The notes beneath the pieces are model-generated. The model was given only the letters and a program-made list of their open reading frames with translations. It had not been told where the DNA came from and searched no databases. Below are positions 22,366 through 58,583 of a stretch of 64,000 nt of DNA, one piece after another. The DNA comes from Lingula anatina (lineage: Eukaryota; Animalia; Brachiopoda): NCBI GenBank assembly GCA_051362555.1, contig CM120642.1, positions 16,368,001 through 16,432,000 of the forward strand, written 5' to 3'. How positions within the stretch are numbered: the first letter of the stretch is position 1; the number at the start of each line of letters is the position of its first letter. Position numbers and translations under genes: made by a program.

Positions 22366-22406
<41 letters not shown>

Positions 22407-23246: not shown

Positions 23247-23284
<38 letters not shown>

Positions 23285-24496: not shown

Positions 24497-24527
<31 letters not shown>

Positions 24528-30805: not shown

Positions 30806-31663
30806 TCAATATTCAAATATCTGACATCTTGCAGCACATGCCAGTCGTCTAGACATTCTATCCGCTATAATTAACTGTCCGTTTTGATTCATGGCAATTG
30901 CAGTTGGTAAACTGAGATGACATTTTTCCGGCACATGCGACCTCAACAGCCAATCAGGTCCTAAAACCGCCACTCGACTGTTTAACCAATCAGCGACAAG
31001 TATTTCCCCAAATGCGTTGGAACATATTCCCCATGGGGAATTAAGTTGGCCATCTCCACATCCTGCCACGTTTGAAACCCCGTATTTAAAGATGGTATCG
31101 CCCTGGGGTGTCACCCCATAAACGCAATGTGTCCCATGGTCCGTCACAGCTAGAATACCACCGTGTAAGCCCTGAATGGCAATATGTTTGGGAGTTTTAC
31201 AAACCGCAATGCTGATTCGATCAACCAAACGGGCCGTCTCGACATCGTACACGCAAACTAGTTTTTTGACTTCGTCGCAGACAAAGACTTGTCCTCGCGC
31301 GTTGGTTGTCACACTGACAGGGAAAACCATGTCTCCCTGGGCAAACCTGTGCACCGCCCCGGGTCTACTTGGGATTACCCAACAGCCATCCGAACAGGAC
31401 ACAATGGTTTTGCCATTACCTATGGAACAAACTGCTGTTGGTTCGGGTAATGCCGTTTCAGCTATCAACTCATGACTTTCGGAATAGTGCTTCAATTTTT
31501 TGTTGTCATTATCTATAAAGAACTGATCCCCTTGTTCATTGCAGGTCAAGTCGCTGATCCAAGGGTCGTCTGTGTCTGTGGGTGTCTTCAACCGAAATGA
31601 CTGGAACCACTTTGCAGTTTTTGGACGCTGACAACTTGACCTCTTCCACTTCAATTTCAGCAT
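30806..31663 (-). CDS. Stand-alone NHL-repeat beta-propeller protein (TRIM2/3/71-type NHL domain without RING/B-box), single exon
   Basis: NHL blades FPVSVTTNARGQVFVCD, GCGDGQLNSPWGICSNAFGEILVADWLNSRV and PTAIAMNQNGQLIIAD. First ATG at 31663; TATAAA at ~31786-31791 (-). Confidence 0.88.
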   Translation of the reverse strand: MLKLKWKRSSCQRPKTAKWFQSFRLKTPTDTDDPWISDLTCNEQGDQFFIDNDNKKLKHYSESHELIAETALPEPTAVCSIGNGKTIVSCSDGCWVIPSRPGAVHRFAQGDMVFPVSVTTNARGQVFVCDEVKKLVCVYDVETARLVDRISIAVCKTPKHIAIQGLHGGILAVTDHGTHCVYGVTPQGDTIFKYGVSNVAGCGDGQLNSPWGICSNAFGEILVADWLNSRVAVLGPDWLLRSHVPEKCHLSLPTAIAMNQNGQLIIADRMSRRLACAARCQIFEY

Positions 31664-32740
31664 GATGCATGTTTTAACCTTGGCGGACAACGCAAAACGT
31701 TGCCTTAAGCATTTATGATTTAAATAAACATTCTCTTGTGTACTCAATACAGACGAAATGTTTAAAAAAGCGCAAAACTGGCTGCTTTATATCCCTAGGG
31801 TTCCTTCTGCTTTTTCAAATTCGCTGAAAATCATCCGCACCTTTCCAGGTTTTCATATCTACTAGGCGACTGCGTTTTAAGTACCTTATATTGAAGTGGT
31901 TTATCAGTCCGTTTCTTCATATATATATAAACACACATATATGACCCGGGGTGTTATCTCCGTGTTGATAACGCTCACTTAATGCGCCATAACTACAACT
32001 GTAAATCATTTTATCCAATTCAAATGTTAGGTAGGAAATTAACATTCAACGTATTCTTCCGGTAGTTCTGCGAATCGACAGTCCTGTTCATTGTGAAAAT
32101 ACCTACACTTCATAATTCAACCATCGATTACAGCATTATGCTTAAAACAATTCCATCAACAATTTTAATTCACTCAAAGAAAGACCCTTTGAACATGCAA
32201 ACTAAAGACACATGACCGCTTGTAGATATTGAACAATTTTTCAATTGTTCGCATCATTTTCCTTATCGCAAGAAGATTTACCATGCGGAATGGCTGTCGT
32301 CTGCCGCTTATCTAATCGATACAGGTAACGCGTGCTATGTTTCATGGTTATGTCATCATAAAAGCTTGATATATTATCTGTTCGAGACGTAGACCGCTGT
32401 CGACGACACTTCAATGAATGTGTCCGTAATAGTCCATAAGGTCTAGTCGGAAAATTCGCGTAGAAACGTACATACTATTCCATTTTTGAGATGTAATTTT
32501 TTGAGAGTGAAAGTATCTTATGTAGGATTTTTGCGCTGATTTTGTTGGAGAAAAAAACCATTGCACCCCAGCGATGTCAGATGACTAGGTTTTGTGCCAT
32601 TTCTTAATGGACACGTTATTTCTAAATGAATTTAGATTCTTTAAGAGTCTTCTTGACATTTCTGGAAATATCGACATCGGGCACTCCTATTTGACGGGTT
32701 TCATCGTCTAGATTGGGAAAGAAGTTGGATATTAAGACAC

Positions 32741-34980: not shown

Positions 34981-35020
<40 letters not shown>

Positions 35021-35070
35021 GTGCCAGTAGATAAGGATAACAATGGCACAGGAATGGGAAAAAAACTAGT
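34470..35070. repeat. Three degenerate direct repeats, the first interrupted by a CCGGTG-ended MITE (34533-34695)
   Basis: ttgggcc.caattccc.cagcaaa...ccagtagataagg...atggcaca.gaatgg.aaa recurs three times. The insert ccggtgccatgaaagt...ttagggttag...actttctggtacatgtcaccgg resembles the 701-925 MITE. Confidence 0.7.
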
Positions 35071-38000
35071 TTTTTTCTCGTTTTACTTGTGTTATACCCC
35101 TGTAGTCAAGAACATATACATTTATACACAATGTACCCCTTCGTTAACATTAAGAGGTGTTGGGTTCTTAAATCTACAGTGGGATTTATTTAAGTAAGAT
35201 AGTTACTTAATTTGACTCAGGAAAGTCTAGGTAACGGCTCGAGTTCCTGGGGCTCCGTAACTTAAAAGCATCGCGTATTGCGAACGGCGATATCACATAG
35301 AGGCTACAGTGTATTACATGGGGCGAGCATGGGCAAGTAATGGAATCGAGACGCTTGCGCTCGGTCGCAATGCGCGCTGCTTTCGAGTTACGGGGCCCGG
35401 GAGAGCAAAGTAACGCAGCACCACAGCTTTGTATCCAAAAACCAAAATTCAACTCATTACCTGGACATCGGCTAGTTTTATGGAAGAAATTGGAGTGACA
35501 GAAATAGTGACGAGATTGTAAAAGTTTAAGTGAGAGGCGAAAGAGGATTATTTCTACTAATGATTAAACAAGCATACATGCGAGTCCATTTAAATTTATT
35601 TGCAAGTCTCGCTTTTTTTTAGCGATCTGTACACGACCACTTTTTTTACAAAAAAAAAAAAAAAAAAAAAAAGAAAATTATAGAATATTTTTTATTCAAC
35701 TATTATGTACAATTTTGAATATTTACAGCTGATTTAAAAAGGACTAATAATCAGTAATGCACTACGTAAACGCAATGAATTATTACATAGCAGTATTATC
35801 AAAAGTTCTAAGATTTTCCACCGTCTTCATCTAGCGTCGGAACGCACACAGTCCGATAATGCAGGTCTTGTGGTCGGAAACTGGTACCAGATGCTCTCGG
35901 GCCGTGGGGAAAAACCCGTCTAAACCCTTCGTGGGGAATGCCGGGAAAGTGCCCACGCCCGGATAATTCGGTCCTTATAACATGACGAAATCGGTTTCTA
36001 TTGGCACGGCGCTGCGTACAGTTCAAGAATCGTCCCGTTTTAGACAGCATTGTGAGATGGAATAACCTTTGTCTTGACTAACTATTCTCTATATATACCC
36101 CGGTACTATACACGAGGTGAAGCATAAAAACTTATTGAAGTAATTCTTACAGAAAAAGGCACTGAAGCCAATAAAAAACTAACAAGAGACATAACAATTA
36201 AACAATCATTTTGACTTTATCTTGGAGAATTAAAACCATAAATAAAGTTAATCATTTTACAACTGCAAGCATCTTTCAAAACTTGATTATAGTTCTCTTT
36301 ATGATAAAATGCAAACAGATTCAAGTAATATGATTATAACTCGGGAATATCAATGATTTCAACTAAACTTTGATATATAATTCGACTTAAAATACCAGGT
36401 TTCTAAAATGTAACTTTGCACTGAAATCGCAACTACCTGCATGATACAAGTACAGAATAAAGCAAGCTTGCTTCAAAATATTTCGGATCTCACATTACAC
36501 TGTATGACGGCCCATGTAAATTTCAATCTGAATTTTTTTGATCCGGAGAAAAGGTGCATATGTGATGAAGTGGATGTATTTGTCAACTATAACACTTGAG
36601 AAAATCTGAATATTAGTAATGTGATCTCTATCTTGAGAGATGACAGCATCTCTCAAGAAGAGCAGACTGTACAAAAAATATAATGAAATATTTTCTCACA
36701 CGTAAAATATTTCATTACAGATTTTGCACAATCTATCAATGTAAAATCTCTTCATGTAAAAGCGTTTACATGAAGTCAGATTTTACAAAGATGTGAGGGT
36801 TTGTTAGTAAGGTTAGTGTGCAGGTTAAGACCTTTTCAAATGCCATACTGACAAACAACTCCACATCATCAAAAGCACAAATTTGAAAAATGACCATCTC
36901 AGATTGAAACAAAACACAGACGACCACAAGTGGTGGGAATGTTTTTGTGAGCAAAAAACTATCTGCATTCAGAATGTGGATAAAGCAACTCTATATTCAA
37001 ATTTATTAATATAATAATTATAGCAACTGTAGAGGTAGACTTTTCCTACAGAAGCACACATCTTATTCAATTGATCTTGTATGGAATGAAGAATTATCTT
37101 GAACCTCAGTTTTCTCTTCTGTTATTGAAATAAAATGGTTCACTGCATAAGGCATAAAATACAAATGAAATTTGATGCAATTTCACCTTGACATGTTTGT
37201 GACCCATGAACCCCAAATATTCTCAGCATCCAAAAGACTGATACATTATTAGACTGTATTCCCACTACATTCAGTACTGTATATTGCCTTCATTACCATT
37301 CCACATTCTTTATATTTGTTTGCAGAACAAGCCGTGTCCTTCAACACCAAAACTCGTGGGATGTCCGAGCATCCATGAAAGTGTCCAAAGGGCTCCTTGC
37401 TAACGCTGCACAGTGTTCAACATCTTGGACATTTGGTCTTGGGTCGACGTTATCTGACATCATGCAGGCGTAATTATTGGAAAACTCCCAATTCGTAGCC
37501 TACAAATGAAATCCAACTTTTACTCAAAAGTATGAAAAGCTATATCGAAAGCTCGCAGTAACTGCAACAAAGAAAGTATATCACTGGTATTTACACACCG
37601 TTAACATTAATGAAAAGGTTGGTTCTTAAAATGATCAGAGCGTTATTTCCAAATGTACAGTGAAATATGCTTCCTTTATTGAAATATATATATTAACTTT
37701 TTAGAGTAAGTAGACAGCAGTCTTCAAAAAATAAATTATTTCAAACATTTGACAAAAAAGTAAGAAAAGATGTTGCTATATTGAATATTGTAATGTTAGC
37801 CTACATGTTAAATTGTTGACTGTCTGTGCTACTTCTAATTCTACTGTTTGTTTACATAGGATATAGTTTTTGATCACTGTCAATAATAAGAAACGCCATT
37901 ATACACCAATAATAATACTTAAAAAATTCAGAACCACTTTTCTTAAGTTGTTGATCCCCAATAACTTACAAAGTTATCTGTATAAAGATCCCTCAATCCT

Positions 38001-38728
38001 GAAGAAGTGTTTCATCTGGAGTTGCAATCTTCATTTTTAGAATCCACCACTTTTGGTAGCCTGCAAATTTAAATTATTACTTCAAAATGTAATAAAAGTC
38101 AACCATTTGTATATGGAATGTGTTTTTAAAGTTTCAGCAGTTTGATGGGAAATAAATATCAAAAGCACTTTTGTCACAAACTTGGAAAAAACATTCAAGC
38201 GAAATATTTTGACATTATATTTTGACATTATATTTTGGGTATTGCACAAATTAGTTTTAACGAAGGAAAAGGAACACTAACAGCATTTAAACGACTCTAC
38301 TCAAAGACAAGTTTAAGTAAAGCCTGAACAATCTATATCCAGCGGGAGGAGTGTACTAGTATTCCATCAAGTGTTTAATTTGTGAAGGATTTATATGGGA
38401 GAGACAAAGAGAAAGTTGAACGTTAGAGTTAAAGAACACGGGAAGGAATAAGAAAGGGTACCCGAAGAGGGAAAAATACACTACAGCCCAAGGTAGCCTT
38501 CTGCTACAACGAACCATCACAAAAAAACATTGATTGGGAGAGTGCCAATATTCTACAAAAAGAAAGTGACTGGAGAACAAGAGGCGTAAAGGGAGGCATA
38601 CAAACCAGGAAAATGCCTAACAATCTGAACAATATAGAGAGATGGAAATAAATACTCACTTCTACGGTGGCCTTTTATTACCACAACCACAGCACTGGAG
38701 GTGGGGGTGGTAGCTGCTAGTATACAAT

Positions 38729-39306
38729 TTCTGGACCAGTGACAACGTCCCGGAGTCACATTGGTGGTGGGTGTTGGGGGCGGTAGCTCCAAGTAATCTG
38801 GACCAGTAACCACGCCCTGGAGTCACATTGGTGGTGGTGGGTGGTGGGGGCGGTAGCTCCAAGTAATCTGGACCAGTGACAACGTCCCGGAGTCACATTG
38901 TTGGTGGTGGGTGTTGGGGGCGGTAGCTCCAGGTAATCTGGACCACTGACCACGCCTCGGAGTCACATTGTTGGTGGTGGGTGGTGGGGGCGGTAGCTCC
39001 AAGTAATCTGGACCACTGACCACGCCTCGGAGTCACATTGTTGGTGGTGGGTGATGGGGGCCGTAGCTCCAAGTAATCTGGACCACTGACCACGCCTCGG
39101 AGTCACATTGTTGGTGGTGGGTGGTGGGGGCGGTAGCTCCAAGTAATCTGGACCACTGACCACGCCCCGGAGTCACATTGGTGGCGGTGGGTGGTGGGGG
39201 CCGTAGCTCCAAGTAATCTGGACCAGTGACCACGCCCCGGAGTCACATTGGTGGTGGTGGGTGGTGGGGGCGGTAGCTCCAAGTAATCTGGACCATTGAC
39301 AACGTC
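38729..39306. repeat. 67-70-bp GC-rich tandem repeat, ~8 copies
   Basis: ggagtcacattg(ttg)gtggtgggtggtgggggcggtagctccaagtaatctggaccactgaccacgcc repeated; the ORF track shows a 70-nt stagger. Confidence 0.97.
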
Positions 39307-40764
39307 CTGCAGAATATTGAGACTGTTGAGGATCTGAAAGGTGACGAATGGCATGTCAAAATATTTTGTATGAATGATAAGGTTTTTCCACATCTGTGAC
39401 AAATTAAAAGAGCTTTTTACCTGTGAAAAATGAGCACTGAATTTGCTAGAGTAAATTGTAAATAGAAAACAAATGCCTGCACCGAGTGACAGGTCCCAAA
39501 CATTCTTAAAACAATTGTCTAAGACCTTGCACAAAATGCTCAGTTTGTTGGAGTTGCACTGATAAAAGATTTGTATTATCTATACAATGAATGACAATCT
39601 AGTTCATTTACCCTTATCCTGCCCCATAACTTACCTTGAATGCTCTCTAATCACAACTATTGAAGGGCTCTTGAAACACTATATGATATAGCTGACATGG
39701 CTTTCTCCATTTTAGCCTTGTTAACCTTGTTAAAAGGGACCGTCATCAGGACAGGCGCTCGCCAATGCTATCTGCCTCAACTACAAAATAAAAAATTATA
39801 AGTCAAAAGTTTCCCTCTTTACTTCTCCCACCCAAATCCAATCTACTAACCATAAATATCTTAATCCTAGGAGTGGGTCATGGGTAAAAGACATTGCCTT
39901 CTGAATGTGAGCTGTCAAATTAATGTGGCTAACGGTTTTTAGTTTTTCAAGGTATGAAAAATCACTTAAGTGTTTTGTTTTCCCCCAAAAACATGAGTGA
40001 TATGTACCTTTTAAGGCTTGATAGGTTTCCATCTCTGTGAAACGCCATATGCTTCTGATGCTCCCCCATGCAGCCCCCTAACATAGAGACCATGGCAGGA
40101 CTCAACCATGCACCAAGGATTGAATGTGACCCTCTTCTTGCACCTCTTTCAAAAAAGCGGGACTTTATCAAGAATTGCCCTAATTGAGTTCTGTAAATAG
40201 AAAGGAAAATTTGATTAGTTTTCAAAAATTGTATATCAAAAGCAGTCTGCAGCCAGAAAAATTGTTGGAATCGGTAGATTTTCAGAATGTGTCAATTTGG
40301 TGACATGGCTGTTAGATTTTTTCTATAAGTATGAAAAAGAGCTTTTGATTTATTTTAAATGTAACTGTTACATCATGATTCAAGAAAAATGTCAAGGTCT
40401 TGTTAATACAAATATTAATGCAATCCAGTCTAGTCCTATTGAACTTTGTATTCGAACCAGTGAATCAAGATTCAGACATCTATATCTAGTTTTTAGGAAA
40501 GAAGGTGGACTGAATGGCCAGTAGGGTGAAAAGTTTATGGCACAGACTGCTGCTGAAAAATTAATTTTAGTGTATTGTTCTCGCCAGTAACACGGGTTAC
40601 CTTGCAGGTTTTTCCGCCTCTGAGACACCATATGCTTCAGACGCTTCTCCAATGCAGCCTCTTCAACAGACCGTGGCAGGACTCACTGGCACCAAGGATT
40701 GAGGGATGTATCGGAAGTGTGCACGTGGCCCTCTTCTCCTTGCAGTTGCCATGAAACATTGGAC

Positions 40765-41138
40765 AGGACTCGCTGGACGCTTCCTAGTGCAGCCACCTCG
40801 TAGACAGACCATGGCAGGACTCGCTGGACGCTTCCTAGTGCAGCCACCTCGTAGACGGACCATGGCAGGACTCGCTGGACGCTTCCCCAGTGCAGCCACC
40901 TCGTAGACGGACCATGGCAGGGCTCGCTGGACGCTTCCCCAGTGCAGCCACCTCGTAGACGGACCATGGCAGGACTCGCTGGACGCTTCCCAAGTGCAGC
41001 CACCTCGCAGATAGACCATGGCACGACTCGCCGGACACTTCCTTAATGCAGCCACCTCGTAGACAGGCCATGACAGGACTCGCTGGACGCTTCCCCAGTG
41101 CCGCCACCTCGTAGAGAGACCATGGCAGGACTCGCTGG
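40765..41138. repeat. 52-bp GC-rich tandem repeat, ~7 copies
   Basis: c(a/c)gccacctc at 40790, 40841, 40893, 40945, 40997, 41049 and 41101. Confidence 0.97.
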
Positions 41139-41196
41139 CTCCAAGGGATGGTCGAAGTAGCTTAAGTGTAGATGTGGGGTGTCTCCTTGCAGTTGT

Positions 41197-42108
41197 GTCC
41201 TGTAAACAGAAATAAAAACGAGATTAGATTTCTTTCATTTCTCAAACTCCCCTTCCAAAAAGAAAAAAAGATTACATACCTTAAGGAGTGTAGTCGAAGT
41301 CCCACAGGTGGTGCCCATCATCTTCTACGTCCTGTAAACAAAAAATAAAAATGAGATTAGATTTCTTTCATTTCTCAAACCCCCCTTCCAAAAAGAAAAA
41401 AGATTACATACCTTAAGGAGTGTAGTCGAAGTCCCACAGGTGGCGCCCATCATCTTCTATGTCCTGTAAACAGAAATAAAAACGAGATTAGATTTCTTTC
41501 ATTTCTCAAACCCCCCTTCCAAAAAGAAAAAAAGATTACATACCTTAAGGAGTGTAGTCGAAGTCCCACAGGTGGTGCCCATCATCTTCTATGTCCTGTA
41601 AACAGAAATAAAAACGAGATTAGATTTCTTTCATTTCTCAAACTCCCCTTCCAAAAAGAAAAAAGATTACATACCTTAAGGAGTGTAGTCGAAGTCCCAC
41701 AGGTGGCGCCCATCATCTTCTATGTCCTGTAAACAGAAATAAAAACGAGATTAGATTTCTTTCATTTCTCAAACCCCCCTTCCAAAAAGAAAAAAAGATT
41801 ACATACCTTAAGGAGTGTAGTCGAAGTCCCACAGGTGGCGCCCATCATCTTCTATGTCCTGTAAACAGAAATAAAAACGAGATTAGATTTCTTTCATTTC
41901 TCAAACCCCCCTTCCAAAAAGAAAAAAAGATTACATACCTTAAGGAGTGTAGTCGAAGTCCCACAGGTGGCGCCCATCATCTTCTATGTCCTGTTAACAG
42001 AAATAAAAATGAGATTAGATTTCTTTCATTTCTCAAACCCCCCTTCCAAAAAGAAAAAAAGATTACATACCTTAAGGAGTGTAGTCGAAGTCCCACAGGT
42101 GGCGCCCA
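41197..42108. repeat. 132-bp tandem repeat x7; each unit is an ~80-nt intron plus a 52-nt exon on the - strand
   Basis: gtcctgt at 41197, 41329, 41461, 41593, 41724, 41856 and 41988. On the - strand each unit reads AG|GTATGT...CTAAT...tttttatttctgtttacAG|GAC. Confidence 0.95.
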
Positions 42109-45100
42109 CCAGTTTGCAGTCTGCTTCCTGGACCTGTAATAAAAAGAAACCTGGAAAGCATGGGAATATGCAATGACACTACGACTCCAGCCCACGACAG
42201 CAAAAAGGTGAAGTATCCTGCGAAGATGACCGAGCGACGATTCCTCGTGGGGAGAAGCGAAGATTTTAGCTGGCCAGCTAAGAGCAACGCCGAATCCACC
42301 GTCTAGACGTCTGCGTGTGCAGGGAACAATATGTCGAAGAGCGATGCGTTGACGTAGGATGAGTAGAAGATTCGGAGAAATGGGAGTCGACTCCCGTGTC
42401 CTTTGTGCTTGATACAGGGCGCAGCACATGGCATCCGTCCTGTTGCTCTAGATCTGTCCGCTGTTGAGTGAACGCACTTTTAAAATTTTGCGCTTTTATA
42501 CCTTTGTTGACGTATAGTCACATGTTGGCGTTCTTGTTGTCACCAATGGTCAACTTGTTCAAAGGGGATGGCCTTTGATAGTGATGCGCAAAGTTGGTAA
42601 TAATATCTTATCAACATATACATTTTCTTTTATATTTTATATTTTGATTATTCTGCCTGTCAGTTTGTTTATAATAAGAGTAATAAGTTCTAAGCAATGT
42701 CTGTGAAATGTGCAGGCAAATTTGATGAAAATTTCTGAGCAACATACCTTCTCCCTAAAATTTTTATAGGTACGATGTCCGTTAAGCTGGTAGCTGTGAA
42801 CTTCTCGCAGGCTACTTTAGTGTGCGTGTATTTGAACACTGATCCAAAATGTGGATAATGTAATTTGGCGTAGGGTGACTGCATTTTTGAGGCAGCCTGA
42901 GGGAGTATGGTTGTTCTGATTGTAGTGAATTGTAGAGAGACAATTGGAAGTACACTGGACTTAGCATGTTCAGTCACCCAAGTACTCTGAAACACATTTT
43001 GTAATCAGCTGACTTGTTATTCTGAAAAATGAAAAAACAAATTATATTGATTTACAAAACTGGAAGATAGAAGCAGTGGATCATATTACTTATGCCAGGC
43101 AGAAGAAACGACTGAATGTATATTTTTATATTCAAAACGTCTACTGATTTAGGTAATAATTAACAACTGACGTCTCCCTTCATGGCGTCGGGTTATCAGT
43201 ACTCCCACACCAGTAACATGAGTTATGAGTTGAGCAGAAACAGAAAAAGATTTTTTATAAAGTTAATGCAAGTACACTGTATATGTGTAGGCCCATTTAT
43301 CTTTTTTTATATTACTAAACGTAAGAATTGTTTGTCCAAGTGAAACTTTACTTACAACAGCCTAGCAACTAAATCTGACGTTTTAACGTCTCCGAAAATA
43401 ACTAGAATTTTTTGAATAACGCAATAATGCGGCCACCTTCGAGGTGTCGCCCGGTTTTTAAAAATTGAAAAAAGAAACTTTTCGGGGCGTCTTTTGTCGC
43501 GGGTCATTATTTTCAGTTGTTTGATTTTTTTGTAATATTTTAGCCATTGATAGAATCTTTAATTCAGTTACATCCACGATTAGCTAGACGAAATGGTGAC
43601 AGGGAAAAGTCAAATTTTTTAAACGGCAAAAACTGCATTCTCTTAGAAAGCAATTAGCAAACATTCATTACCAGGCACTGTGAAAAATTCAACAAAATTG
43701 TCAAAAATAAACGTGCATGTAGTAATAGCTATTTAAAGTAGTCTAATTTTTGTTAGTATTAAAAACGTGTAAATATTATCCACATAGGATATTTTTAGAG
43801 CCTTCGATATTTAAAATATTTAAACTTCCCATACTTTGAGGCATGCATGAGTCGGAAAATGTTTGCATAATTTCATAAAAAAACTAGAATTATCTCTTTA
43901 TGTGACCACAGTTTACTCATGTGCCTTACATCATTCCCTTAAACCCTTTCCCAATATCGATTTCAGATATTTTTGACACATTTTGTCTTCATCTGAATCA
44001 CGTAAACGTTATCAAGTGTCATAAGGCGTACATTATGAAAATATTTAGGTCTTGGAACGTGATTTGATGACTTTTTTAAATGCATATATATACAATTATA
44101 AATTTATAATTAAGTTATTTAATATCAAATTATAAGTTCTGACCGAGTTTTAAAATTTATTTTAGGAGGGGTAAAAAAACCCAACTCCATCTAATATATA
44201 TTGGATACATCCGTAGGCTTATGTCCTTAGAACTAGGCGTACAAAATGTGTCTTCTAGCTAAAGTTATTATTATGGTGTATGTGTAATTAAAAAAAAAAC
44301 TACGTAAGAGTGACAAAAGGTCATGTGTTTCGAATGCACCCCCACTCTCCGATCAGACATTACTTTTGTATAATTCACAGTCCATCTTCGTTGTAGTTTG
44401 TGACTTTACATCATTTCTTAGTGAAGCGGTGTTGTCCTCAATTTAACTTAAATGTCCAAATTACTAAGAAGAAACCACTTGCAAGAATTATAAGGCTTTT
44501 TATACTGCTAGGTCTATAGACGTGATACACACGATATTTTGCAACCCCACAAAATCTGTTTCTTAAAATTTTGGTTCCACCACAAAGCTTAGCACTATCA
44601 TTCTTTTTTGCTTTATTGATATATTTTCAGTACATAAATAACCATTGTCTGTTGCCCAATTTTGCACAAAATTAAGATAATCCCCAAAACCTCATTAATT
44701 GTGTTTCCTCCATCCCAAAAAATATTAAAAATTTCTCCTCATAATTTAGTAGTGCACTGGCATCTACACAGTACATAAATGTATCATTATAATAACATCT
44801 TGTTCTTACTGATAACATAATTAGCTTAATTCCATAACAATTCTAAAATGTTAATAACAATGAAAATTCAAAGTAGATGGCAAGATTCTTATTGTGCTGA
44901 TAAAGATAAAATATGTAAATTCAATACTGATTAGGTACTGTATACTGGCTCATTGAAAAAAGGGAACCGTTTCACAAAAAAATTAAGCTTAGACTGCTAA
45001 ATCTGGATAGCCAACTATACAAAGCCAACTTTGCGATATTGTCTTACAACTACAATTTTTTAAGAACGATTGGTCCACAGTTGATGAGTAGAATATACAT

Positions 45101-46353
45101 AAATGGGCTACTGACACCACTGCAAGTAAAAGACTTGCCAAGACAATCAAAATGTAAATCAAAGGAAAGTGAAAAGAAAGTAAAAAGACTGGAAAAAATG
45201 AGGCAAAATTGATAACTTGGTTAATGAGCGAACAATACTCTAGTTTTGATTAAATCAGAACTTTTCTTGCACCTATTTTTATTTTTGCCATTTTGTAAGT
45301 GAAAAAAGGGGAATAGGGGATTGGTGTAGTGAAAGCCCAACCTTAACCTTTGGATGCTATTCTCATTAAACATATGCATAAAAGACAAAATTTAGACCAC
45401 AAATAGATTCATGCAATCTACCAACCTTTTTTACAGTAAGTCATTGCAACTTATCAGTTATTTCTGACCTAGGCTATCTGTAAGATTCTTACAACTGTGA
45501 AGTGCAACTTAGCCAGCTAAGTCTTTATAGGCTCAGATTTTAGACTACAAACCAACTTCAAACATTTAGTAAAGCAAGTGCAAGGAATAGTTAGTTTGAA
45601 GGCTCTGCCTCCCCATAGGGTGAGAACAAACACACTCACACTGTATGATACATTACAGAAAACATTGGTTAAAAATATACTCTGGAATTTTACATTTTCA
45701 CTAGTATAGAATCAATTTGATTTCTAAAACTGACTTATTATAAAAATACTCCTGTCAATTTAAAACTTTTTCATAAAGCATATCTGAAATATACTGATAA
45801 AATGTTATTAAAAATATTAAAATTTGATATTCACAGATAAAATAGGCTCAAGTCAAAATGATTAAGACAATTATTGAAGCATTATTCAAACCCCAATTTT
45901 GATTATTTTCATACAATTAGTGATTCACAAGTTCTTTAACAGAGTTGCACCTAATCTGACTACATGATATCTATCAAAATCTCTCTAAAATCAAGTGACA
46001 AAAAATGCCCACAGTTTCAAGCACCATAAAATATGGCTTAAGTAAGTAATATCCTCAATTGTTTCATAATAAACGTCATGTCACTTGAATGTACCTTTCT
46101 CCAGAAAAAAAGATGAACTTGCAAGGTTTGATAAGTCTGCGTTTACAGGTAGATGTCATAGTTTAATATACATGAGGCAGCTTTATATCGTGGTCAACAA
46201 TATTATATTATATCAGTTTCTCTAGCCTCCATGTCTTATTCGTCATAATATTTTGATTTTCAAATTCAGGGTCCCCTAGTAAAAGATCTTGCATTTCCTC
46301 TTGATCACAGAAGAATCTGAGTTGAGAATACAGTTGAGAATACAGAGTTGAAA

Positions 46354-46459
46354 TTAGGCCTCTCCTCTCCACTCGGGGTCCTCTTGCAACTGAACCTGAC
46401 TGACATCCATGGTTACATCTTGAAAAATAATATATTCCCAAAAAAGTTTAAATGGTGCA

Positions 46460-46506
<47 letters not shown>

Positions 46507-48265
46507 TAAAATCAATAAATCTTGGACACATTACTTGTGGTACGTCTGAATAACACGACAGACAAGAAGAAAATAGTTGCTCTTGAAAATGGACTTTAAG
46601 TAATGAAAATGCAAGATGACAGCTAGTAGATAGTACATGTGCATGCAATTTATTTGAAATTCTGACTTTTCAGTCCTAATGATTTAGATTATTTATAGCC
46701 AATAATCTGAGAAAATAAAATATTCAACAGAGAAATTGATTGCAATAAATCCTGCTCGTACCTGACTGCTTAATATTCACTGCAGCAAACCTCTCTACGA
46801 CATCGTCGAGCTGATCAGTTGGGTCATCGTAATCACACGTGTACGCTTTATTCTCGAGGCAGTACTTAAATAAACTACACCAAAGAGAAGTTGAAAATAA
46901 AGAAAGAATTGCCTACTTTCTTTTGTCTTTCTGTATGGACTTTCATTCACAATAAAAGAAAGAATTGCCTAGTAGACACTATTTTGTCTGTCAGTTTGGA
47001 GTTTAATTTACATGTTTTTTAACTTTCCTTTTTTTTTTTCTATTTTTTTTCATTTAACAGTCTGTCTGAACTAAAACATGATATCTTTCTCTTTTTAATC
47101 TTTCTATCCTCTTTGTTTTTTTTTTTTGCTTTTTTTGTCAGTCTGTCTGAACAAACATTAAAAATTTAATTTATGAACTTTATTAAATCCTTAACATTTC
47201 TTTTTTTGTTGGTTTGTCTGTCTGTCTGAACAAGAGTTCTTAGAAACAATGAGATTAAATAAAGATTAAATAAAGGAAAAAAAATTTTGAACCTAACATG
47301 GCTGATTTGTGTTTGGTTTGAAAAAGTCTTATAATTTGATTGAACTTTTTTTGCTTACTGCTCAAATAAATTAAAATAATTCACTTCACCTGTTCCAATG
47401 TTCATCTTGCGAAAGAAGAAACGGATTCCCTACAACAATCAATAGGGCCTTTGCTCTTGTGATCGACACATTAAACCTCTGAAAAAAAAAATTAATCCCA
47501 CATGTAACTGTATGTGCGGGTGAACACTGAAGACAGTATAGTCTGAGACTAACTGTTCATATCTCTTCTGTGAATTCCGCATCACATGGCATAGTCTCTG
47601 CAGTGCCATAGTGGAAAGAAATGGTGATGAAAATAGTATGGACTATAGCTGTTTAAATAACCTTACATTTCAAAATATGTGTGTGCACATCCATATGTAC
47701 AAAGTCTTATGAATTATGTGTTCACGCATATACACATGCCACAGCACAATCATGGTAATGACACTATCTTTTCAATGGGCAAAAATTATCAAACTTTCAA
47801 ATGTATACCTTTATAAACACATAAAGTATATAGTATTAGTGGTACTCTTACTGCACAGATTAGAACTATAGAGTAGCTTACTTTTTTATTTTGTTGTGAC
47901 CATCCAAGAGGAATTGGGTAGGAGTATTAAAATTTTAAAAATTAATGGCCTAAAAAAATACCGCATCTGTAAAGTTCACGATTTCCCCTGTATTCATCAT
48001 GGAATAAGCTCTGTCATATTTCCCTCACTTGTTTTCTGTAGGGGGAAATAATTCCAATTTCATTCTGCAAGACTCGGATGCCTCTGGCCTCCAGTAGCAG
48101 GATGTGATCTGTAGTTTTTGAGGAGTTTTGTGAGGAGGAATGGGTTGTAATGGCCTTGACGTTGGTACAGTACATCTTGATCGTCGTCATCTGAGCCAGG
48201 ACTCGAACCACCCCTCTTCTTGTACACATCACAGTAGGTCATGTATCTTTCTAAAAGTGAGAGTC
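46354..48265 (-). pseudogene. MOV10: 5'-truncated, internally deleted MOV10 RNA helicase fragment (unprocessed)
   Basis: Exon 48029-48265 reads GLSLLERYMT...LLTKLLKNYRSHPA, fused out of frame to EIGIISPYRKQ. Then 47390-47478 (RFNVSITRAKALLIVVGNPFLLSQDEHW), 46762-46874 (LFKYCLENKAYT...) and 46354-46418 (...QEDPEWRGEA*, the MOV10-type tail). No upstream exons were seen before the HINE cluster and the IK 3' end. Confidence 0.88.
46461..46505. repeat. (TAA)n microsatellite; others include (CA)n 6330-6361, (GT)n 9011-9046, (CA)n 23250-23283 and (GA)n 58547-58582
   Basis: Directly visible simple repeats. Confidence 0.97.
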
Positions 48266-49020
48266 CTGTAAGACATTAAAATGATGAGACATTTCATATA
48301 CATGTATAAATATATAAATGAAGTTATTCTTTATCAAAGAAACTAAATAACTATGAGGTTCAAAAGGTTTTAATTTCACCATTATATGTACAAAAGAGAT
48401 GAAAGAGACATTTTGTCAATGCTTAAGTACAAAATCTCTACTACCACATGTAAAAGTATTTCAGTGTTTGCAATTTTACCAGAGCTTATAGAACTACCAA
48501 AAAAAAAAAAAAAAAAAAAAAATGACCCTTGTCAAAACCTAGTCCTAGTCAAAAGAAAGACTTTCTTTTGTCAAATTAAAAATTATTGAAGGAATAATTC
48601 TGGGCACATCCATAGCAGTAAAAATGTTTCATTAATTGCATTACTTTTTATTTTACTTAAATCTTAGAAGCAGAAATCACTGGTCAATAAAAAGCTTTTA
48701 GAATAAGACCTACATGTATATAATTTTACCAGACTCTCAAACACCTTTGTAAATATTATAGTTAATCATAGTACTTTTGTCCACAATTTTCAACTTCACT
48801 TTTCTTTTAGTCATAGTCTTATTTCATTTTTATTTAAGCCCGAGGTAGTAATGTTACTTCCCCTTTTAATGCATTTCATAACACATACACTCACACACAC
48901 TGGCAGATTAAAACTTTACTATTACTCATATTATCATTTTTATTATAATGGCTGTTGGGGGCATATTATTATAATTAAATATATTAAAAACTATTATAAT
49001 TATAATTATATATATTAAAA

Positions 49021-52000
49021 ACTTATTTGCAATATAAAACAAAATTTACCTGCATAATTATCACTGCTTCCTTATTATTAATCCAGCAGAGAGCTTAACC
49101 TTTGGGAGTTTACAGGAAAATATCAACAAGTGTGCTTTATGTAATCTCATTTAATGGCCTATTAATTAGGCAAATGACTTTATAACTTTATAACTTAGCC
49201 TAGTGAGACCTAAGGGAAATTTACAGACTGACCCTCTCAAAGGTCTTCAGGCCCATAAGTCACACCCTTAAGAAATGCACAAAACAATAATGCACAAAAT
49301 AGGAGACTATCAATTCTGATACAATAATACATTATGTTTAACTGCACAGTCAACATCAAATGTTTTAAAATTATGCACAACAGGTAACACCGACGAAAGT
49401 AAAAGCATAAGGCTTCAGGCCCATCAGAGTTCAAGTTTATACTTAGAAAGTGCCAAAATGAGAAAAATGAAAATTTCACAAAAAATGCATAAATTTAATA
49501 AAAGTGATAATCTAATAGAGCTGGTTTTCTAATATGAGCTGTATGTCAATCCTAAGAATCATTCTTGTAAGACTAGTTGAAAAAATAGAAAGTAACAGTT
49601 TTCTTTCTATAATGTTAATGGTGGCAGTGTACAAAAGAGGTTTCTTGTCAATTTTGATGCAACATTACATAATGATTAACTATATAAATACCACCAATTT
49701 TTAAATATCTACTATTAAAAACATGGACATTAAAAAAAGGTGATTACCAAGGGAGCTCTAAGTCCCACATTGAAAATTCCAGTATGTGAAAGATAAAAAT
49801 TTTCACAAAAAACCTCTATAACTTCCAGAAAATTAACTAATGAGACAGATTTTCCAACTGAAGCTGTATTTCAGTCCTATGTTTCTTTCCTTTAAGTGTA
49901 AAAAGAGCAAGTGACATGGTTTTCCTTTCACGGTCACTAAGAAGGCAGTGCCTAAAATAGGGTTTTGTTCAATTTTGATGCAATATTACATAATGCTTAA
50001 CAGCATAATAACCATCAGTTTTTTAATGATAAAATAAAACTATCATGGATATTCACAAAATGTGCCTAGCCCATAGAGTTCAGAAACACTTTGAAAATCC
50101 CAAAATCTAAACAAGAGAAACTGTATTAAAAAGAGTTTATTTCCATTTTCAATACCTTTTTTACATGAAAAAAAATAATCGATTTACTGTCATTTTTATG
50201 TGATCAATTAAAATATGTTGTCAAAGGAAAAATATCAATAGAACAAATTTAAATGTCCAACTTGCTCCATTCTGAGATTCTAAACTTAGTGAATGATTGA
50301 ATCTGACGAACTTCAATGATATGAGTTCCCTTCCATTTTTGATACTTTATTACACAATGCACAATAAAAGGTGTACTGTCATTTTTATATAATCAACTAA
50401 CAATATTTTTAAGAAGCAGAAATGTCAAAACAACACTTTTACATATCTAATTTGTTCCATATTGAGACTGTTAACATGCCTAAGAATTAAATCTGAAGAA
50501 AAGCCACTTATATGCAAAAAGGCTAATAACTTCATCAAAACTTAACTGATCAAGCTTATTTTCAAACTTGATCTGTATATTAGTCAGACTGATCACTCCT
50601 GTAAGTTTCAAGACAAAAGGCTGATTGGTTTTCCTTAAAATGTGTTATCAGTGTTGCATATATGCTGAATAATGGAAAACAAGGCAGCAAAGCTGTCAAA
50701 TGTGCAGACAAAAAACAGAAAATAAAGATACAAAATACATGTAGGTCATTTTGTCAATTTTGATGCAATAATAAATAATGCTTATAATAACACAGTCAGT
50801 TAACACTGAATTTTAATCATGCACAACAGGTAACATGCTCAATAACAGGAGCAGATCCAGAGGTATTTTCTGACAGTATTCCAAATTATATTTGTTGATC
50901 CATCCTCCACTTTTGATGGTCTTCCAACAGAAAAAAAAATTGATAGCAGTCAATGTAAACTTTAAAATCTGACCATCATCTAAAAGACCCAGAAGACGGC
51001 CTCAATCCACCCCTGCAATAAGATTATAGTTTCTGGACCATGAGAGTTCAAATTCACATAATGAAAATCCCAATATTTGTTGACAGTGCATAAAATAATA
51101 TTACATATTGTTTAAAGACATATAAACCTATGCAACTGCTTATGTGGAAATACAGAAAATCTGAAGAGCTTCAGGTGGATGGGAGTTGAAAATGCCAGTG
51201 TTTAGAAAAAAAATTAAAAAGAAAACACAACAAAAAAAAAAAAAAAAGAAAAAAAATTCCAATAAAGCTGCTATTCAAACTTTTAATCTTGCTGTATTAA
51301 CATGATATGAACAATCCCAATGTGTTTGAGGATAATAAGGCACTGTTATCCATCTAAAGCATTAATGTTGGCATTACACAATTTTTTTCTTTTGTAAACT
51401 TATTTGCAATATTAAACAACATTTACCTGCATAATTATCACCAATTCCTAATTATGTGACACAGTTAAGAGAGCTTAACCTATAGGACTTGAATGGGAAA
51501 TCTCAACGTGTGTTTTATGTAATCTTATTTAATGGGCACTTGAAAATCAATTAGGCAAGTAATTTTATAGCTCTGAATTTAGCTAGTGATTATCCCAAGG
51601 GACAATTACCACCATCCATAAACAGTAGCCCCATATACTGTAACACTCCATAGAGCTGCATTGCTTCCAAAACAGAAAACAATCACACTGATTTCCAACA
51701 CAAGCTACACTTCAGTCCTATGAAACTTTTCAGTAAGTTAGAATATCATAAGTAAAATGGTTTTTCCTTAATGGTCATCCCAGCAGCGATGTCCAAAAAA
51801 GTTTTTTTTTCATCTTTTATGCAATTTAACATAATGCTTAACAGCACAATGGCCATCAATTTTTAATAATAAAGTAAATGTATCATAGCTATTCAAAAGA
51901 TGTGACTAGCAATGGTATTCAAGCCAATTGAAGTTCAAAGACTAAGTCACACCTTGAAAATGTCCATATGTGAAAATTTTAATTGTAACAAAAAACTATA

Positions 52001-55000
52001 TAATTTCCAAGAAAGTTAACCAATATAACAGGTTTTCCAACTGAAGCTATAATTTAGTGCTATGCTACATTTCTGTAAGTTTGAGAAGAGTGAGTGACTT
52101 GGTTTTCCTTTAATGGTCACTATGGAGGCATTGTCTAAAATGGGGTTGTCTTCAATTTTGATGCAATATTACATTATGCTTAACAGCATAATGACCATCA
52201 ATTTTTAATAATAAAATAAAAGTATCATGGATATTCAGAAAATTTGATATGGAAAGGTCTTCAGGTCCATGGAAGTTCAGAGTCACAACTTCAAAATGCC
52301 AAAATGTACACAAGAGATAACTGTACTGAAATTAATTTCTTTCAACTTTCAACACTTTTTTTACATATATCAAAATAATCAATTTACTGTCGTTTTTAAA
52401 TGATCACTTAAGAAAGTTGTTGACATAGGAAAAATATCAATAGAACAATTTTAAATGTCCAATTTGTTCCATTCTGAGATTCTGAACATGGTGAATGATT
52501 GAATCTGACAAACTGTAAAGATATGAGTTTATTTCCATTTTTGATACTTTATTACACAATGCACAATAACAGGTTTACCATCATTTTTATATAATCAACT
52601 AACAATATTGTTAAGATGCAGAAAATGTCAAAAGAACACCTTTACATTACTAATTAGTTCACAAATGTGATTGTTAACATGGCTAAGAATTAAATCCGAG
52701 GAAAAAAGACTTATATACAAAAAAAGGCACAATTTCACCAAAACTGAACCGATCAAGCTTATTTTCGAACCTCATCTGTATTTTAGTAAATCTGATCACC
52801 CCTGTGAATTTCAAGATGATTGGCCAATTGATTTTCCTTGAAATGTGTTATCGGTGTTGCACATATGCTGAAATAGTGAAAAAACAGCATAACTTCCATA
52901 AAAATGTCCCGATCAGGCTGATTTTCGAACCTGACCTGCGTATTATGAATATTCATCATTTCAGTAACTTATAAGCCAAAAAGTAAAACAATTTTTCGCT
53001 TATCGTGTTATCGGTGTTGCATTTATGCTGAGAAAAATGAAACAAGGCAGCAAAGCTGTCAAATGTACAGACAAAAAACAGAAAAAAAAAGATGCAAAAT
53101 AGGTCATTTTGTCAATTTTGATGCAATAATAAATGCTTATAATAGCACAGTCAGTCAACGCTGATTTTTAATCTTGCACAACAGGTAACATGGTCAATAA
53201 CAGGAGCAGATCCAGAGATATTTTCTGACAGTATTCCAAAGTATCTTTGTTGATCCATCTTCCATTTTGATGGTCTTCCAACAGAAACTCGTTAATATAA
53301 ACTTTAAAATCTGACTGTCTTCCAGGAGACCCAGAAGATGGTCTCATTCCACCCCTTCAATAAGATTACAGTTTCAGGACCATGAGAGTTAAAATTCACA
53401 TGATAAAAGTCCCAATATATGAAAAATGATGACAATGCATAAAATAATATTACAGCATGTTTAAAGACATAAATACCAATACAACTGCTTATGTGGAAAT
53501 ACTGAAAATGTGCATGCAGAGCCTCAGGTGGATGGGAGTTAAAAATCACATCTTAAAAATGCCAGTGTTGGAGAAAAAATTAAAAAGAAAACAACAAAAA
53601 TATAATTCCAATGAATCTGCTATTCACTGCTTCCTTATTATGGACACTATGTTATCTAGCAGAGAGCTTAACCTTTGGGAGTTTACAGGGAAATATCAAC
53701 AAGTGTGCTTTATGAAATTTCATTTAATGGCCGCTTAATTAGGCAAATTAGTTTATAGCACTGAAATTAGCCAAGTGAATACCCAAGGGGAATTTACAGA
53801 CTGACCACACAAATTTGTCTATTAAAGGTCTTCAGGCCCATAAGTCACACCTTAAGAAAAGCAGAAAACAATAATGCACAAAATAAAACAGGAGACTGCC
53901 AATTCTGATGCAATAATACATTATGTTTAACTGCACAGCCAACATCAAATTTTAATTATGCACAACAGGTAACACTGATGAAAGTAAAATGCTGAAAATT
54001 TTGAAAAAAAAACATCATAACTTCCCTAAAATTGGCCGGATTATGCTGAATTTCGAACTTGACCTGCGTATTATGAATATTTATCAGTTCTGTAAGTTTC
54101 AAGCCAAAAAGTAAAACAGTATTTCACTTATCGTGTTATCGGTGCTACATAAATGCTGAAAAAAGTGAAACAAGACAGCACTGCTCTGAAATGGGTTTGT
54201 TTCCATTTTTAAGACTTTTTTAACATAAAACAAAATAAACAGTTTACTGCCATTTTTATATGACCAACTAAGAAAATTGATGAGATGGAAAAAATATCAA
54301 TAAGACAGTGTTATATGTCCAATTTCCTCCATTATGAGATTCTGAACATAGTGGATGATTGAATCTGACAAACTGCAATAATATATGTTTATTTCCATTT
54401 TTGACACTTTATTACACAATACATGATAACAAGTTTACCATCATTTTTACAAAATCAACTAACAATGTTGTAAAGATGCAGGAAATGCCAAACAAACACA
54501 TTTAAGTATCTTATTAGTTCAATAATGAGACTGTTAACATGCCTAAGAATTGAATGTGAGGAAATGTGAAAAAACAGCATAACTTCTAAAATAATGGACC
54601 GATTATGCTGATTTTCCAACTCAACCTGCGTTTTAGTAAGATTTGCCACTCCTGTGAGTATAATGACAATTGGCCTATCTGTTTTTCTTATATTGTGTTA
54701 TCAGTGTTGCATATATGCTGAAAAAAAGTGAAAAAATAGCCTAAATTCACTAAAAATGACCCAATCATGCTGATTTTCAAACTTGACCTGCGTATTATAA
54801 ATATTCATCAGTTCTGTAAGTTTCAAGCCAAAGGGTAAAACAGCTTTTCATTTATTGTGCTATCGGTGCTGCATATATGCTGAAAAAAGAGAAAAAATAG
54901 CCTAAATTCACTAAAAATCACCTAATCACGCTGATTTTCGAACTTGACCTGCATATTATGAATATTCATCAGTTCTGTAAGTTTCAAGCCAAAAGGTAAA

Positions 55001-58000: not shown

Positions 58001-58414
58001 ATCGTGTTATCAGTGTTGCATATATGCTTAAAAAAAATGAAAAAAGAGCATAACTTCCATAAAAATGCCCCGATCATGCTGATTTTCGAACTTGACCTGC
58101 GTATTATGTATATTCATTAGTTCCATAAGTTTCAAGCCAAAAGGTAAAACGGTTTTTCACTTATCGTGTTATCGGTGTTGCATATATGCTGAAAAAAGTG
58201 AAAAAACAGCATAACTTCCATATAGATGGCCATATCATGCTGATTTTCGAACTTGACCTGCATATTATGAAAGCTCATCAGTTCTGTAAGTTTCAAGCCA
58301 AAAGGTAAAACGGTTTTTCACTTATCATGTTATCGGTGGTCAAAGTGCACGGCGACGACGACAGACGCAGGTGATGGCTATATGTACAGACACATCTGTG
58401 TCTGTACATAAAAA
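49021..58414 (-). mobile_element. Cluster of nested HINE elements of the same family
   Basis: 3' termini at 50677 and 53040; 5' termini (tatgtacagacacatctgtgtctgtacataaaaa plus (gacggc)n) ending at 55284, 55982 and 58414. Many ~161-bp monomers; reverse complement of 24429-28947. Confidence 0.88.
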
Positions 58415-58545
58415 GAGATTTTGAAATATTTTCAAATACGCACGATATTCCTGTAAGAACGAGCTAAGCGATTTGTCAGATTTAAAGTAGAGACAACACT
58501 AAAAAACGCACTCTTCTTTATTACCAAACTGTCTCTTGGCATATT

Positions 58546-58583
<38 letters not shown>

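What the first reader, a model, noticed from the sequence alone, without database searches (positions are those of the whole stretch)
41197..42133. Tandem array in which every 132-bp unit is a complete intron plus a 52-nt micro-exon
Seen: each of seven near-identical units carries a strong donor (AAG|GTATGT), a branch-like CTAAT, a pyrimidine tract and a CAG acceptor. These define six 52-nt exons (41939-41990, 41807-41858, 41675-41726, 41544-41595, 41412-41463, 41280-41331). The exon consensus has stops in all frames (frame 0 DIEDDGRHLWDFDYTP*) and is not a multiple of 3. Inference: splicing would build an RNA with a tunable number of a 52-nt module, with many exon-junction complexes and identical lariats. 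This is loosely analogous to repeat-exon architectures such as EBV EBNA-LP W exons or Firre, but apparently non-coding.
Basis: partly seen in the sequence, partly recalled or inferred. Interest (0 to 1): 0.78.

Follow-up and report, generated by a model that had tools for sequence, protein, structure and literature searches.

The report
Minisatellite that copies a whole intron
In what is likely a lamp shell genome, a 132-base repeat holds seven copies of one short intron with six tiny exons between them at the front of a spliced RNA that likely makes no protein; RNA reads show the copied introns can be cut out but mostly stay in, so it is likely a tolerated copying accident rather than a tunable module factory.

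Summary
The anatomy is exact: seven 79-80-nt GT-AG introns and six 52-nt exons on the minus strand, stops in all three exon frames. RNA reads show a minus-strand poly(A) transcript, starting about 0.1-0.4 kb upstream of the array and separate from the helicase gene before it, whose three tested downstream introns are 71-100% spliced. The array's own sites are used at the predicted bases, but weakly: 5, 18 and 10 exon-exon joints against intron depths of 128, 177 and 19 in three runs, about 6%, 15% and 50% splicing per intron (rough; third run few molecules). So most molecules keep the introns; a clean exon concatemer is a minority product at best. No conserved ORF; three Lingula anatina paralogous loci share the downstream module. 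Best reading: a splice-junction minisatellite, of a kind known from lancelets ('mirages'), whose unit happens to span a whole short intron, tolerated in a likely non-coding RNA. It differs from mirages in that the copies end up in the RNA and are partly spliced. New variant of a known kind; function not shown; sample-dependent splicing is the one open lead.

The parts
42071..42520 (-). First exon of the host RNA (5' end diffuse, about 42200-42520; CpG-rich). Its last 37-38 nt equal the 3' part of the 52-nt exon
   Evidence: Depth on the minus-strand RNA 10/8 at 42231-42376, 5/5 at 42377-42522, 1-3 beyond, no joint listed at the 42134 acceptor-like site; 8-9 CpG per 100 nt at 42200-42400. Start site inferred from depth.
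41991..42070 (-). Array intron 1 (80 nt)
   Evidence: reads of all units pile here
41939..41990 (-). 52-nt exon 1
   Evidence: exon-exon joints
41859..41938 (-). Array intron 2 (80 nt)
41807..41858 (-). 52-nt exon 2
41727..41806 (-). Array intron 3 (80 nt)
41675..41726 (-). 52-nt exon 3
41596..41674 (-). Array intron 4 (79 nt)
41544..41595 (-). 52-nt exon 4
41464..41543 (-). Array intron 5 (80 nt)
41412..41463 (-). 52-nt exon 5
41332..41411 (-). Array intron 6 (80 nt)
41280..41331 (-). 52-nt exon 6; its AUG would open a 192-codon frame into the next exon if intron 7 were removed
   Evidence: that joint lay outside the stretches laid
41200..41279 (-). Array intron 7 (80 nt)
   Evidence: retained in 3 (X1) and 5 (X2) reads that run on into the next exon (loose ends at 41987)
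40601..41199 (-). 599-nt exon holding a separate 52-bp x 7.2 minisatellite (40764-41138)
   Evidence: 3' border by joint 40190->40601, 26 and 19 reads
40008..40190 (-). 183-nt exon, diverged copy of the module at the end of the previous exon
   Evidence: joints; 78% identity over 90 nt
39635..39780 (-). 146-nt exon
   Evidence: joint 39780->40008 (3 and 15 reads) and loose ends at 39635 (9 and 7 reads)
38660..39333 (-). Exon holding a 70-bp x 8.3 minisatellite; 5' border seen in RNA, 3' border predicted
37970..38060 (-). Predicted exon (not tested with reads)
   Evidence: GT/AG borders only
36980..37561 (-). Predicted last exon, AATAAA-type signal near 37007 (not tested with reads)
42815..43154 (+). 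Divergent plus-strand RNA ending at a donor near 43153; next exons not found in the window
   Evidence: depth up to 15 with first mate on minus, loose ends at 43154/43155; 0 matches in the window

Best explanation
The array is a recent head-to-tail amplification of one short intron plus one 52-nt exon at the front of a spliced, likely non-coding RNA; its splice sites work but are mostly left unused, likely because the introns are very short, tightly packed and promoter-proximal, and it is likely tolerated without a function of its own. Shown: the anatomy, minus-strand poly(A) transcription, efficient splicing of downstream introns, weak and sample-dependent splicing of the array introns, lack of a conserved ORF. 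Inferred: (1) origin by slippage or unequal crossover between two acceptors that are identical over their last 19 intron bases and first 4 exon bases, which would put exactly one exon plus one intron in each unit; (2) survival because the RNA has no reading frame to break, whereas a 52-nt exon would shift the frame of a coding gene; (3) retention caused by 80-nt introns between 52-nt exons and by a purine-rich stretch predicted to pair with the pyrimidine tract; (4) the product is a mosaic of partly spliced RNAs.
For: Anatomy. Retention: intron depth 128 (X1), 177 (X2), 19 (X7) at 41995 versus 5, 18, 10 exon-exon joint reads; simulation converts this to about 6%, 15%, 50% per intron if introns are independent, about 10-12%, 20%, 60% of molecules if all-or-none. 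Downstream introns of the same RNA: 0.98/0.92, 0.71/0.81, 1.0/0.96 spliced in X1/X2. Pile depth over unique exon depth is 5.4 (X1) and 10.1 (X2), against about 6-6.5 expected for 7 mostly retained introns and 0.7 for 90% splicing. Signals are not weak: 7 of 9 matches to the U1 consensus and 12-13 of 15 pyrimidines, at the top of 19 control introns (3-8 and 8-13); the array introns are shorter than all 19 controls (124-550 nt, median 297); predicted unpaired fraction of the tract 0.22-0.36 versus 0.19-0.69, with 1 of 19 controls below 0.34. No frame: longest AUG frames 150 (retained) and 192 (spliced) codons, no Pfam hit for the frames tested (proteins 10, 12, 13), all frames closed within 80 codons downstream of 40601, 2-nt insertion at 40620 in 24 of 32 and 10 of 23 reads; RefSeq paralog ORFs use shifting frames of the same module. 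Two more arrays with units of 52 and 70 nt sit in exons of the same RNA. Published kind: mirages (PMC3087553 section 16); retained short first introns of lncRNAs (PMC8477579 abstract).
Against: X7 splices about half of these introns (10 joint reads from about 5 start places, plus 4 loose-end reads not counted), so retention is not fixed and may be regulated. The unit is present and transcribed in X7, whose reads are otherwise mostly 90-95% alike to the window (127 of 193). A homologue of the intron seems to lie inside a paralog's RefSeq ORF, so the intron is old and kept. The intron's folding energy is not unusual against shuffles (z -0.4 to -0.9), so the masking step is only compositional. 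The 19 control introns come from four genes of one window, 16 of them placed by eye without reads. Absence of function was not tested.
Confidence: 0.63

Rival explanations
1. Regulated retention switch: the array is a bank of detained introns and upstream AUGs that holds the RNA in the nucleus or silences it, and tissue-dependent splicing releases it; copy number would set the threshold.
For: Splicing differs about 6% / 15% / 50% between runs while downstream introns are spliced. Each unit carries an AUG pair giving a short frame of 28 (retained, unit tested) or 30 (spliced) codons; only the last would reach a 192-codon frame. Strong but unused splice sites.
Against: X7 is a diverged population or allele with few molecules, and only 6 partly fitting reads downstream, so the difference may be genetic or come from a paralog. 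No localisation data. No conserved ORF to be regulated.
Confidence: 0.15
2. One reading: a fully spliced non-coding RNA built from a tunable number of 52-nt modules, with identical lariats as a possible product.
For: Exact joints in 3 of 3 informative runs; non-coding.
Against: Upper bound for fully spliced molecules about 10-12% (X1) and 20% (X2); reads with one intron removed between retained ones; no Rfam match at E<=1 in 35000-48000; exon, intron and unit fold no better than shuffles.
Confidence: 0.08
3. Decaying orphan protein gene: the 52-nt exon was the first coding exon (AUG, 14 codons, phase-0 donor) of a small Lingula-specific protein, and its amplification created decoy start exons.
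For: AUG to donor is 42 nt in frame with a 178-codon frame in the next exon; three Lingula RefSeq models resemble that frame, two of them keep one frame over the last module where the window has a stop.
Against: None of the 3 paralog ORFs matches the 52-nt exon; their starts and frames differ; the match is to a 52-nt repeat read in rotating frames; no relative outside Lingula beyond repetitive or low-complexity hits (8 of 11; 5 of the 8 sequences not inspected); the stop lies 62 nt before a junction with at least three verified junctions behind it, a decay signal by the recalled 50-55 nt rule.
Confidence: 0.1
4. The exon-exon joints are not splicing but come from DNA alleles or paralogs in which a unit lacks the intron; the array is simply an unspliced minisatellite in a first exon.
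For: No DNA run was laid; loose ends at 41988 and 42115 in X2 show other alleles or paralogs not found in the window; joined-form counts in DNA runs were not given.
Against: The joint removes exactly the GT-AG interval in three runs of two studies.
Confidence: 0.04

Closest known systems
Amphioxus 'mirage' minisatellites (Adh3, globins BflGb6/BflGb9, troponin C, PGBD5; PMC3087553 section 16 read; PMC3902484 one passage)
   Same: Head-to-tail minisatellite (units 10-160 bp there, 132 bp here) that spans exon-intron borders and carries spare splice signals, with near-identical units and diverged ends.
   Different: Mirages copy one border and lie in an intron of a coding gene without changing the mRNA. 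Here the unit holds a whole intron with both sites, the host seems non-coding, and the copies enter the RNA, retained or spliced.
Retained short first introns of human lncRNAs (PMC8477579, abstract only)
   Same: Short, promoter-proximal introns retained in a spliced, apparently non-coding RNA.
   Different: Single introns averaging 354 bp there; seven identical 80-nt copies here; chromatin marks not testable.
EBV W repeats / EBNA-LP and ebv-sisRNA-1 (PMC3751371, passages)
   Same: 5-8 repeats at the 5' end of a transcript, each with short exons and a short intron (81 nt there, 80 nt here).
   Different: W1+W2 (66+132 nt) are coding and in frame, the unit is about 3 kb, and the excised intron is an abundant stable RNA; here the exon is 52 nt with stops and the intron mostly stays in.
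Firre RRD local repeats (PMC4820808, passages)
   Same: Local repeat inside a spliced non-coding RNA.
   Different: RRD is purely exonic and was shown to keep RNA in the nucleus and bind hnRNPU; nothing of that is tested here and the unit includes an intron.
Schistosoma SmPoMuc / micro-exon genes (PMC4015677 review, passages); variable internal tandem repeats of human duplicated genes (PMC2812944, section 5 read)
   Same: Tandemly repeated small exons or repeats at exon-intron borders that change transcript structure, in paralog families.
   Different: SmPoMuc exons are 27 nt and coding; the human cases read do not describe a unit made of one whole intron plus one exon.

Membership tests
Mirage minisatellite | Head-to-tail near-identical units of minisatellite size | tested here: met
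   132 bp x 6.9, 97% matches
Mirage minisatellite | Unit spans an exon-intron border and carries splice signals | tested here: met
   both borders of one intron
Mirage minisatellite | Only one border is copied, so the copies lie inside an intron | tested here: not met
   whole intron in each unit
Mirage minisatellite | Copies do not enter or alter the mature RNA | tested here: not met
   copies are in poly(A) RNA, retained or spliced
Mirage minisatellite | Copy number differs between haplotypes | tested here: inconclusive
   pile/exon depth 5.4 versus 10.1 and variant 5' border reads; no DNA reads
lncRNA with retained short first intron | Short intron at the 5' end, retained while later introns are spliced | tested here: met
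lncRNA with retained short first intron | No translated protein | tested here: inconclusive
   no conserved ORF or Pfam hit but frames of 150 and 192 codons exist; no ribosome data; the 150-codon frame was not searched for homologues
lncRNA with retained short first intron | H3K4me3 cluster over the intron | not testable with these tools
   no chromatin data
EBV W-repeat / EBNA-LP type | Repeated exons join in frame to encode a repeat protein | tested here: not met
   52 nt, stop in every frame
EBV W-repeat / EBNA-LP type | Excised short intron accumulates as a stable RNA | not testable with these tools
   only long-fragment RNA-seq runs were listed
Firre RRD type | Repeat is exclusively exonic | tested here: not met
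   80 of 132 nt are a spliceable intron
Firre RRD type | Repeat confers nuclear retention and binds hnRNPU | not testable with these tools
   needs fractionation and binding assays
SmPoMuc / micro-exon genes | Frame-keeping small coding exons | tested here: not met
   52 is not a multiple of 3; stops in all frames

The most novel reading that the evidence does not exclude
A minisatellite that manufactures working exons: each added unit brings a spliceable 80-nt intron and a 52-nt exon with its own AUG, and the RNA switches by tissue or stage from a retained, nuclear form to a spliced form, so that repeat number is a heritable dial on the release or translation of a Lingula-specific RNA family.
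Probability: 0.12. Interest if true: 0.7.

Novelty: new variant of a known kind. Interest (0 to 1): 0.36.

Why it matters
It is a caught-in-the-act example of exon and intron multiplication by tandem duplication, with RNA evidence of what the spliceosome does with seven identical, strong but crowded sites: it mostly ignores them. That makes it a ready natural minigene for asking why short packed introns are retained, and it links the silent 'mirage' repeats to real gain of exons. Without a shown function its interest is evolutionary and modest; if splicing proved regulated and copy number mattered, it would be a new kind of regulatory repeat.

Tried and rejected
No indexed RNA holder was listed, only 9 raw-read runs by species label (no evidence either way); 5 of 9 were laid (X1, X2, X4, X7, X8). 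X4 gave depth 2 in the array and was left out of the estimates; X8 was laid only downstream. Of 9 joint rows, 3 were counted as spliced, 3 as unspliced, 2 (3 reads each, X2) were left unassigned and 1 lies elsewhere. Read-through from the upstream helicase gene: rejected, its RNA ends near 44654 and depth is 0-0.5 at 43545-44128. My by-eye upstream exons (donors at 42747 and about 42502, acceptor 42134): no joints listed. Known structured RNA: no Rfam hit. Special fold of exon, intron or unit: z from -0.94 to +0.77. Pairing of the exon with the neighbouring 52-bp repeat: only 7 nt, rejected. Homology of the 52-nt exon to other modules: 3 of 1000 shuffles reached the score for 40690-40762, but 138, 687 and 920 of 1000 for three other stretches, so only suggestive. 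Excised stable introns as the source of intron depth: rejected, reads run from intron into exon and on to the next unit (46, 67 and 2 unit-to-unit joints). Four read-derived 20-mers had no match in the window. Searches with neighbouring proteins did not name the organism. Earlier-findings look-ups near the site and by sequence were empty. Paper searches listed no report of a non-coding array with one whole intron plus one exon per unit; the library lacks most subscription papers, and the original mirage paper (PMC117041) was not held. No supplements were read; those of PMC4595640 may hold Lingula intron-length data that bear on the length argument. One search had three unverified downstream borders off by one base; one search repeats it corrected with the same result.

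Full report
Observation. The array is as described. Tandem Repeats Finder gives period 132, 6.9 copies, 97% matches at 41196-42108. The upstream flank shares only the last 37-38 nt of the exon; the downstream flank shares the acceptor and four exon bases. A splice-signal pattern found the 7 array units and 1 other site in 64 kb; since the seven are one event copied, sequence alone could not prove use.

Organism and setting. The window is most likely Lingula anatina: the only clear relatives of a frame from the exon behind the array are three RefSeq models of that species, LOC106164805, LOC106153014 and LOC106173768, and earlier unchecked notes on this genome say the same. Upstream on the same strand lie the last exons of a UPF1-like helicase gene (AAA_12 and UPF1 matches; the label MOV10 is recalled). 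Its RNA ends near 44654 and coverage falls to 0-0.5 at 43545-44128, so the array RNA is not a read-through.

Transcription. Nine raw RNA runs were listed by species label; five were laid. The first stretch (41939-46300) held one unit, so reads of all units pile on it. X1 and X2 are stranded and give the same orientation for the array as for the helicase 3' end, that is minus-strand RNA. Unique upstream depth is 10 and 8 at 42231-42376 and fades by 42520, over a CpG-rich stretch; a plus-strand RNA starts just beyond (42815-43154). The array therefore sits at the very front of its transcript (inferred from depth). The second stretch (39315-40762) shows three downstream introns of 410, 227 and 301 nt, with CT..AC joints for the first two and loose ends for the third; spliced fractions are 0.98/0.92, 0.71/0.81 and 1.0/0.96 in X1/X2, exon depth about 24 and 18. 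X7 and X8 had only 6 and 8 partly fitting reads there.

Splicing of the array. Exon-to-exon joints at the predicted bases occur in X1 (5 reads), X2 (18) and X7 (10), against intron depth 128, 177 and 19 at 41995: raw shares 0.04, 0.09 and 0.34, 95% intervals 0.01-0.08, 0.06-0.14, 0.19-0.53 (reads, not independent molecules). A structure-only simulation with 142-nt reads and an assumed 20-nt anchor turns these into about 6%, 15% and 50% per intron, or about 10-12%, 20% and 60% of molecules if splicing were all-or-none. The pile over unique exon depth is 5.4 and 10.1, near the 6-6.5 expected for seven mostly retained introns and far from 0.7 for efficient splicing; the X2 excess may mean more units, 3' bias or paralog reads. 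Some joints have arms long enough to include intron on the far side, showing one intron removed beside retained ones (side 59-67). X4 had depth 2 and was not used. The joint from the last small exon to the large exon and skipping of the whole array were not directly visible; no loose end pointing to whole-array skipping was among those shown, but 11 were hidden.

Why retained. Not weak signals: the donor matches U1 at 7 of 9 bases and the tract has 12-13 pyrimidines in 15, at the top of 19 control introns. The array introns are shorter than all controls (124-550 nt) and flank 52-nt exons. The tract is predicted to pair with a purine-rich stretch just upstream (unpaired fraction 0.22-0.36; 18 of 19 controls at 0.34 or more; 0.58-0.71 for the three verified host introns), but the fold is no stronger than shuffles. 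Length, packing, 5' position and masking are thus candidate causes, not shown ones.

Coding potential. Joined models give longest AUG frames of 150 codons (retained) and 192 codons (spliced, from the AUG of the last small exon); all frames close within 80 codons behind 40601. No Pfam hit for the frames tested. A 2-nt insertion at 40620 is common in reads (24 of 32, 10 of 23). Two further arrays with 52- and 70-nt units lie in exons of the same RNA. The three paralog models read the same module in shifting frames and none matches the 52-nt exon. The RNA is therefore likely non-coding, a member of a small Lingula family; a decaying orphan protein gene is not excluded. One paralog ORF (P0003, residues 42-69) back-translates to a likeness of the array intron: score 39.5 versus at most 27 in 200 shuffles and at most 30.5 in 19 control intron ends (segment chosen after seeing the likeness). 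This suggests that the intron is older than the array and is also read through in that gene model.

Mechanism. Inferred: the acceptor before the small exon and the acceptor before the large exon are identical over 19 intron and 4 exon bases; mispairing between such sites would duplicate exactly one exon plus one intron, and further slippage would give seven. In a coding gene a 52-nt exon would shift the frame; in this RNA it is tolerated. The spliceosome recognises the copies only some of the time, which yields a mosaic of partly spliced RNAs.

Comparison. Closest are the amphioxus mirages, minisatellites of exon-intron borders that leave the mRNA unchanged (PMC3087553 section 16; PMC3902484 passage); earlier unchecked notes report many in this genome. 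This array works like them in origin but fails two defining features: it copies a whole intron and it enters the RNA. Retention of short first introns is common in human lncRNAs (PMC8477579 abstract). EBNA-LP W repeats share the 5' position, copy number and an 81-nt intron but are coding (PMC3751371 passages); Firre RRD is purely exonic with a tested nuclear role (PMC4820808 passages); SmPoMuc exons keep frame (PMC4015677 passages). Six paper searches listed no description of this exact layout, but this scan's own notes hold look-alikes in other genomes, so the layout recurs. Lingula is highly heterozygous (1.6%; PMC4595640 passage), which limits allele-versus-paralog calls from short reads.

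Verdict. Real feature, first reading partly supported, new variant of a known kind, interest 0.36. The open lead is the six- to eight-fold difference in splicing between samples, which long reads from single animals would settle.

Noticed in passing
window 46355-48263 (-): Last exons of a UPF1-like (recalled: MOV10-like) helicase gene. One exon joins two helicase motifs out of frame and exons between AAA_12 positions 121 and 176 are missing, so this copy or the assembly has internal deletions, yet the 3' end is well covered by RNA (depth up to about 250). No upstream helicase motif found in 48275-59500.
   Followed up: partly
window 42815-43544 (+): Divergent plus-strand RNA with a donor near 43153 and two different next exons not found in the window; it would run antisense into the helicase gene.
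   Followed up: partly
window 42115 and 41988: In run X2, 5 and 4 reads leave the window sequence at the 5' border of the array and at the start of the small exon: another allele or paralog with a different arrangement.
   Followed up: partly
window 40764-41138 and 38730-39304: Two further exonic minisatellites (52 bp x 7.2, 70 bp x 8.3) in the same RNA; all three exonic units (52, 52, 70) leave remainder 1 when divided by 3, possibly chance.
   Followed up: no
window 59572-59913: 139-bp x 2.5 repeat in the last intron of a RED/IK gene that ends just before the acceptor, mirage-like but without the AG.
   Followed up: no
window 18681-19835 (-): Single-exon glycosyltransferase (Gly_transf_sug / Caps_synth) with only 1 relative found among 2194 candidates of similar length.
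   Followed up: partly
window 20922-23895 (-) and 30806-31786 (-): Guanylate-binding protein gene and a single-frame NHL-repeat ORF; the latter had no relative of similar length.
   Followed up: no
window 24500-28350 and 49800-58450: A composite element with 161-bp tandem units occurs in several copies in opposite orientations (arms up to 848 nt, 91% complementary).
   Followed up: no
window 8132-8376: 51-bp x 4.8 repeat with open frames on both strands (17-residue unit), no Pfam hit.
   Followed up: no
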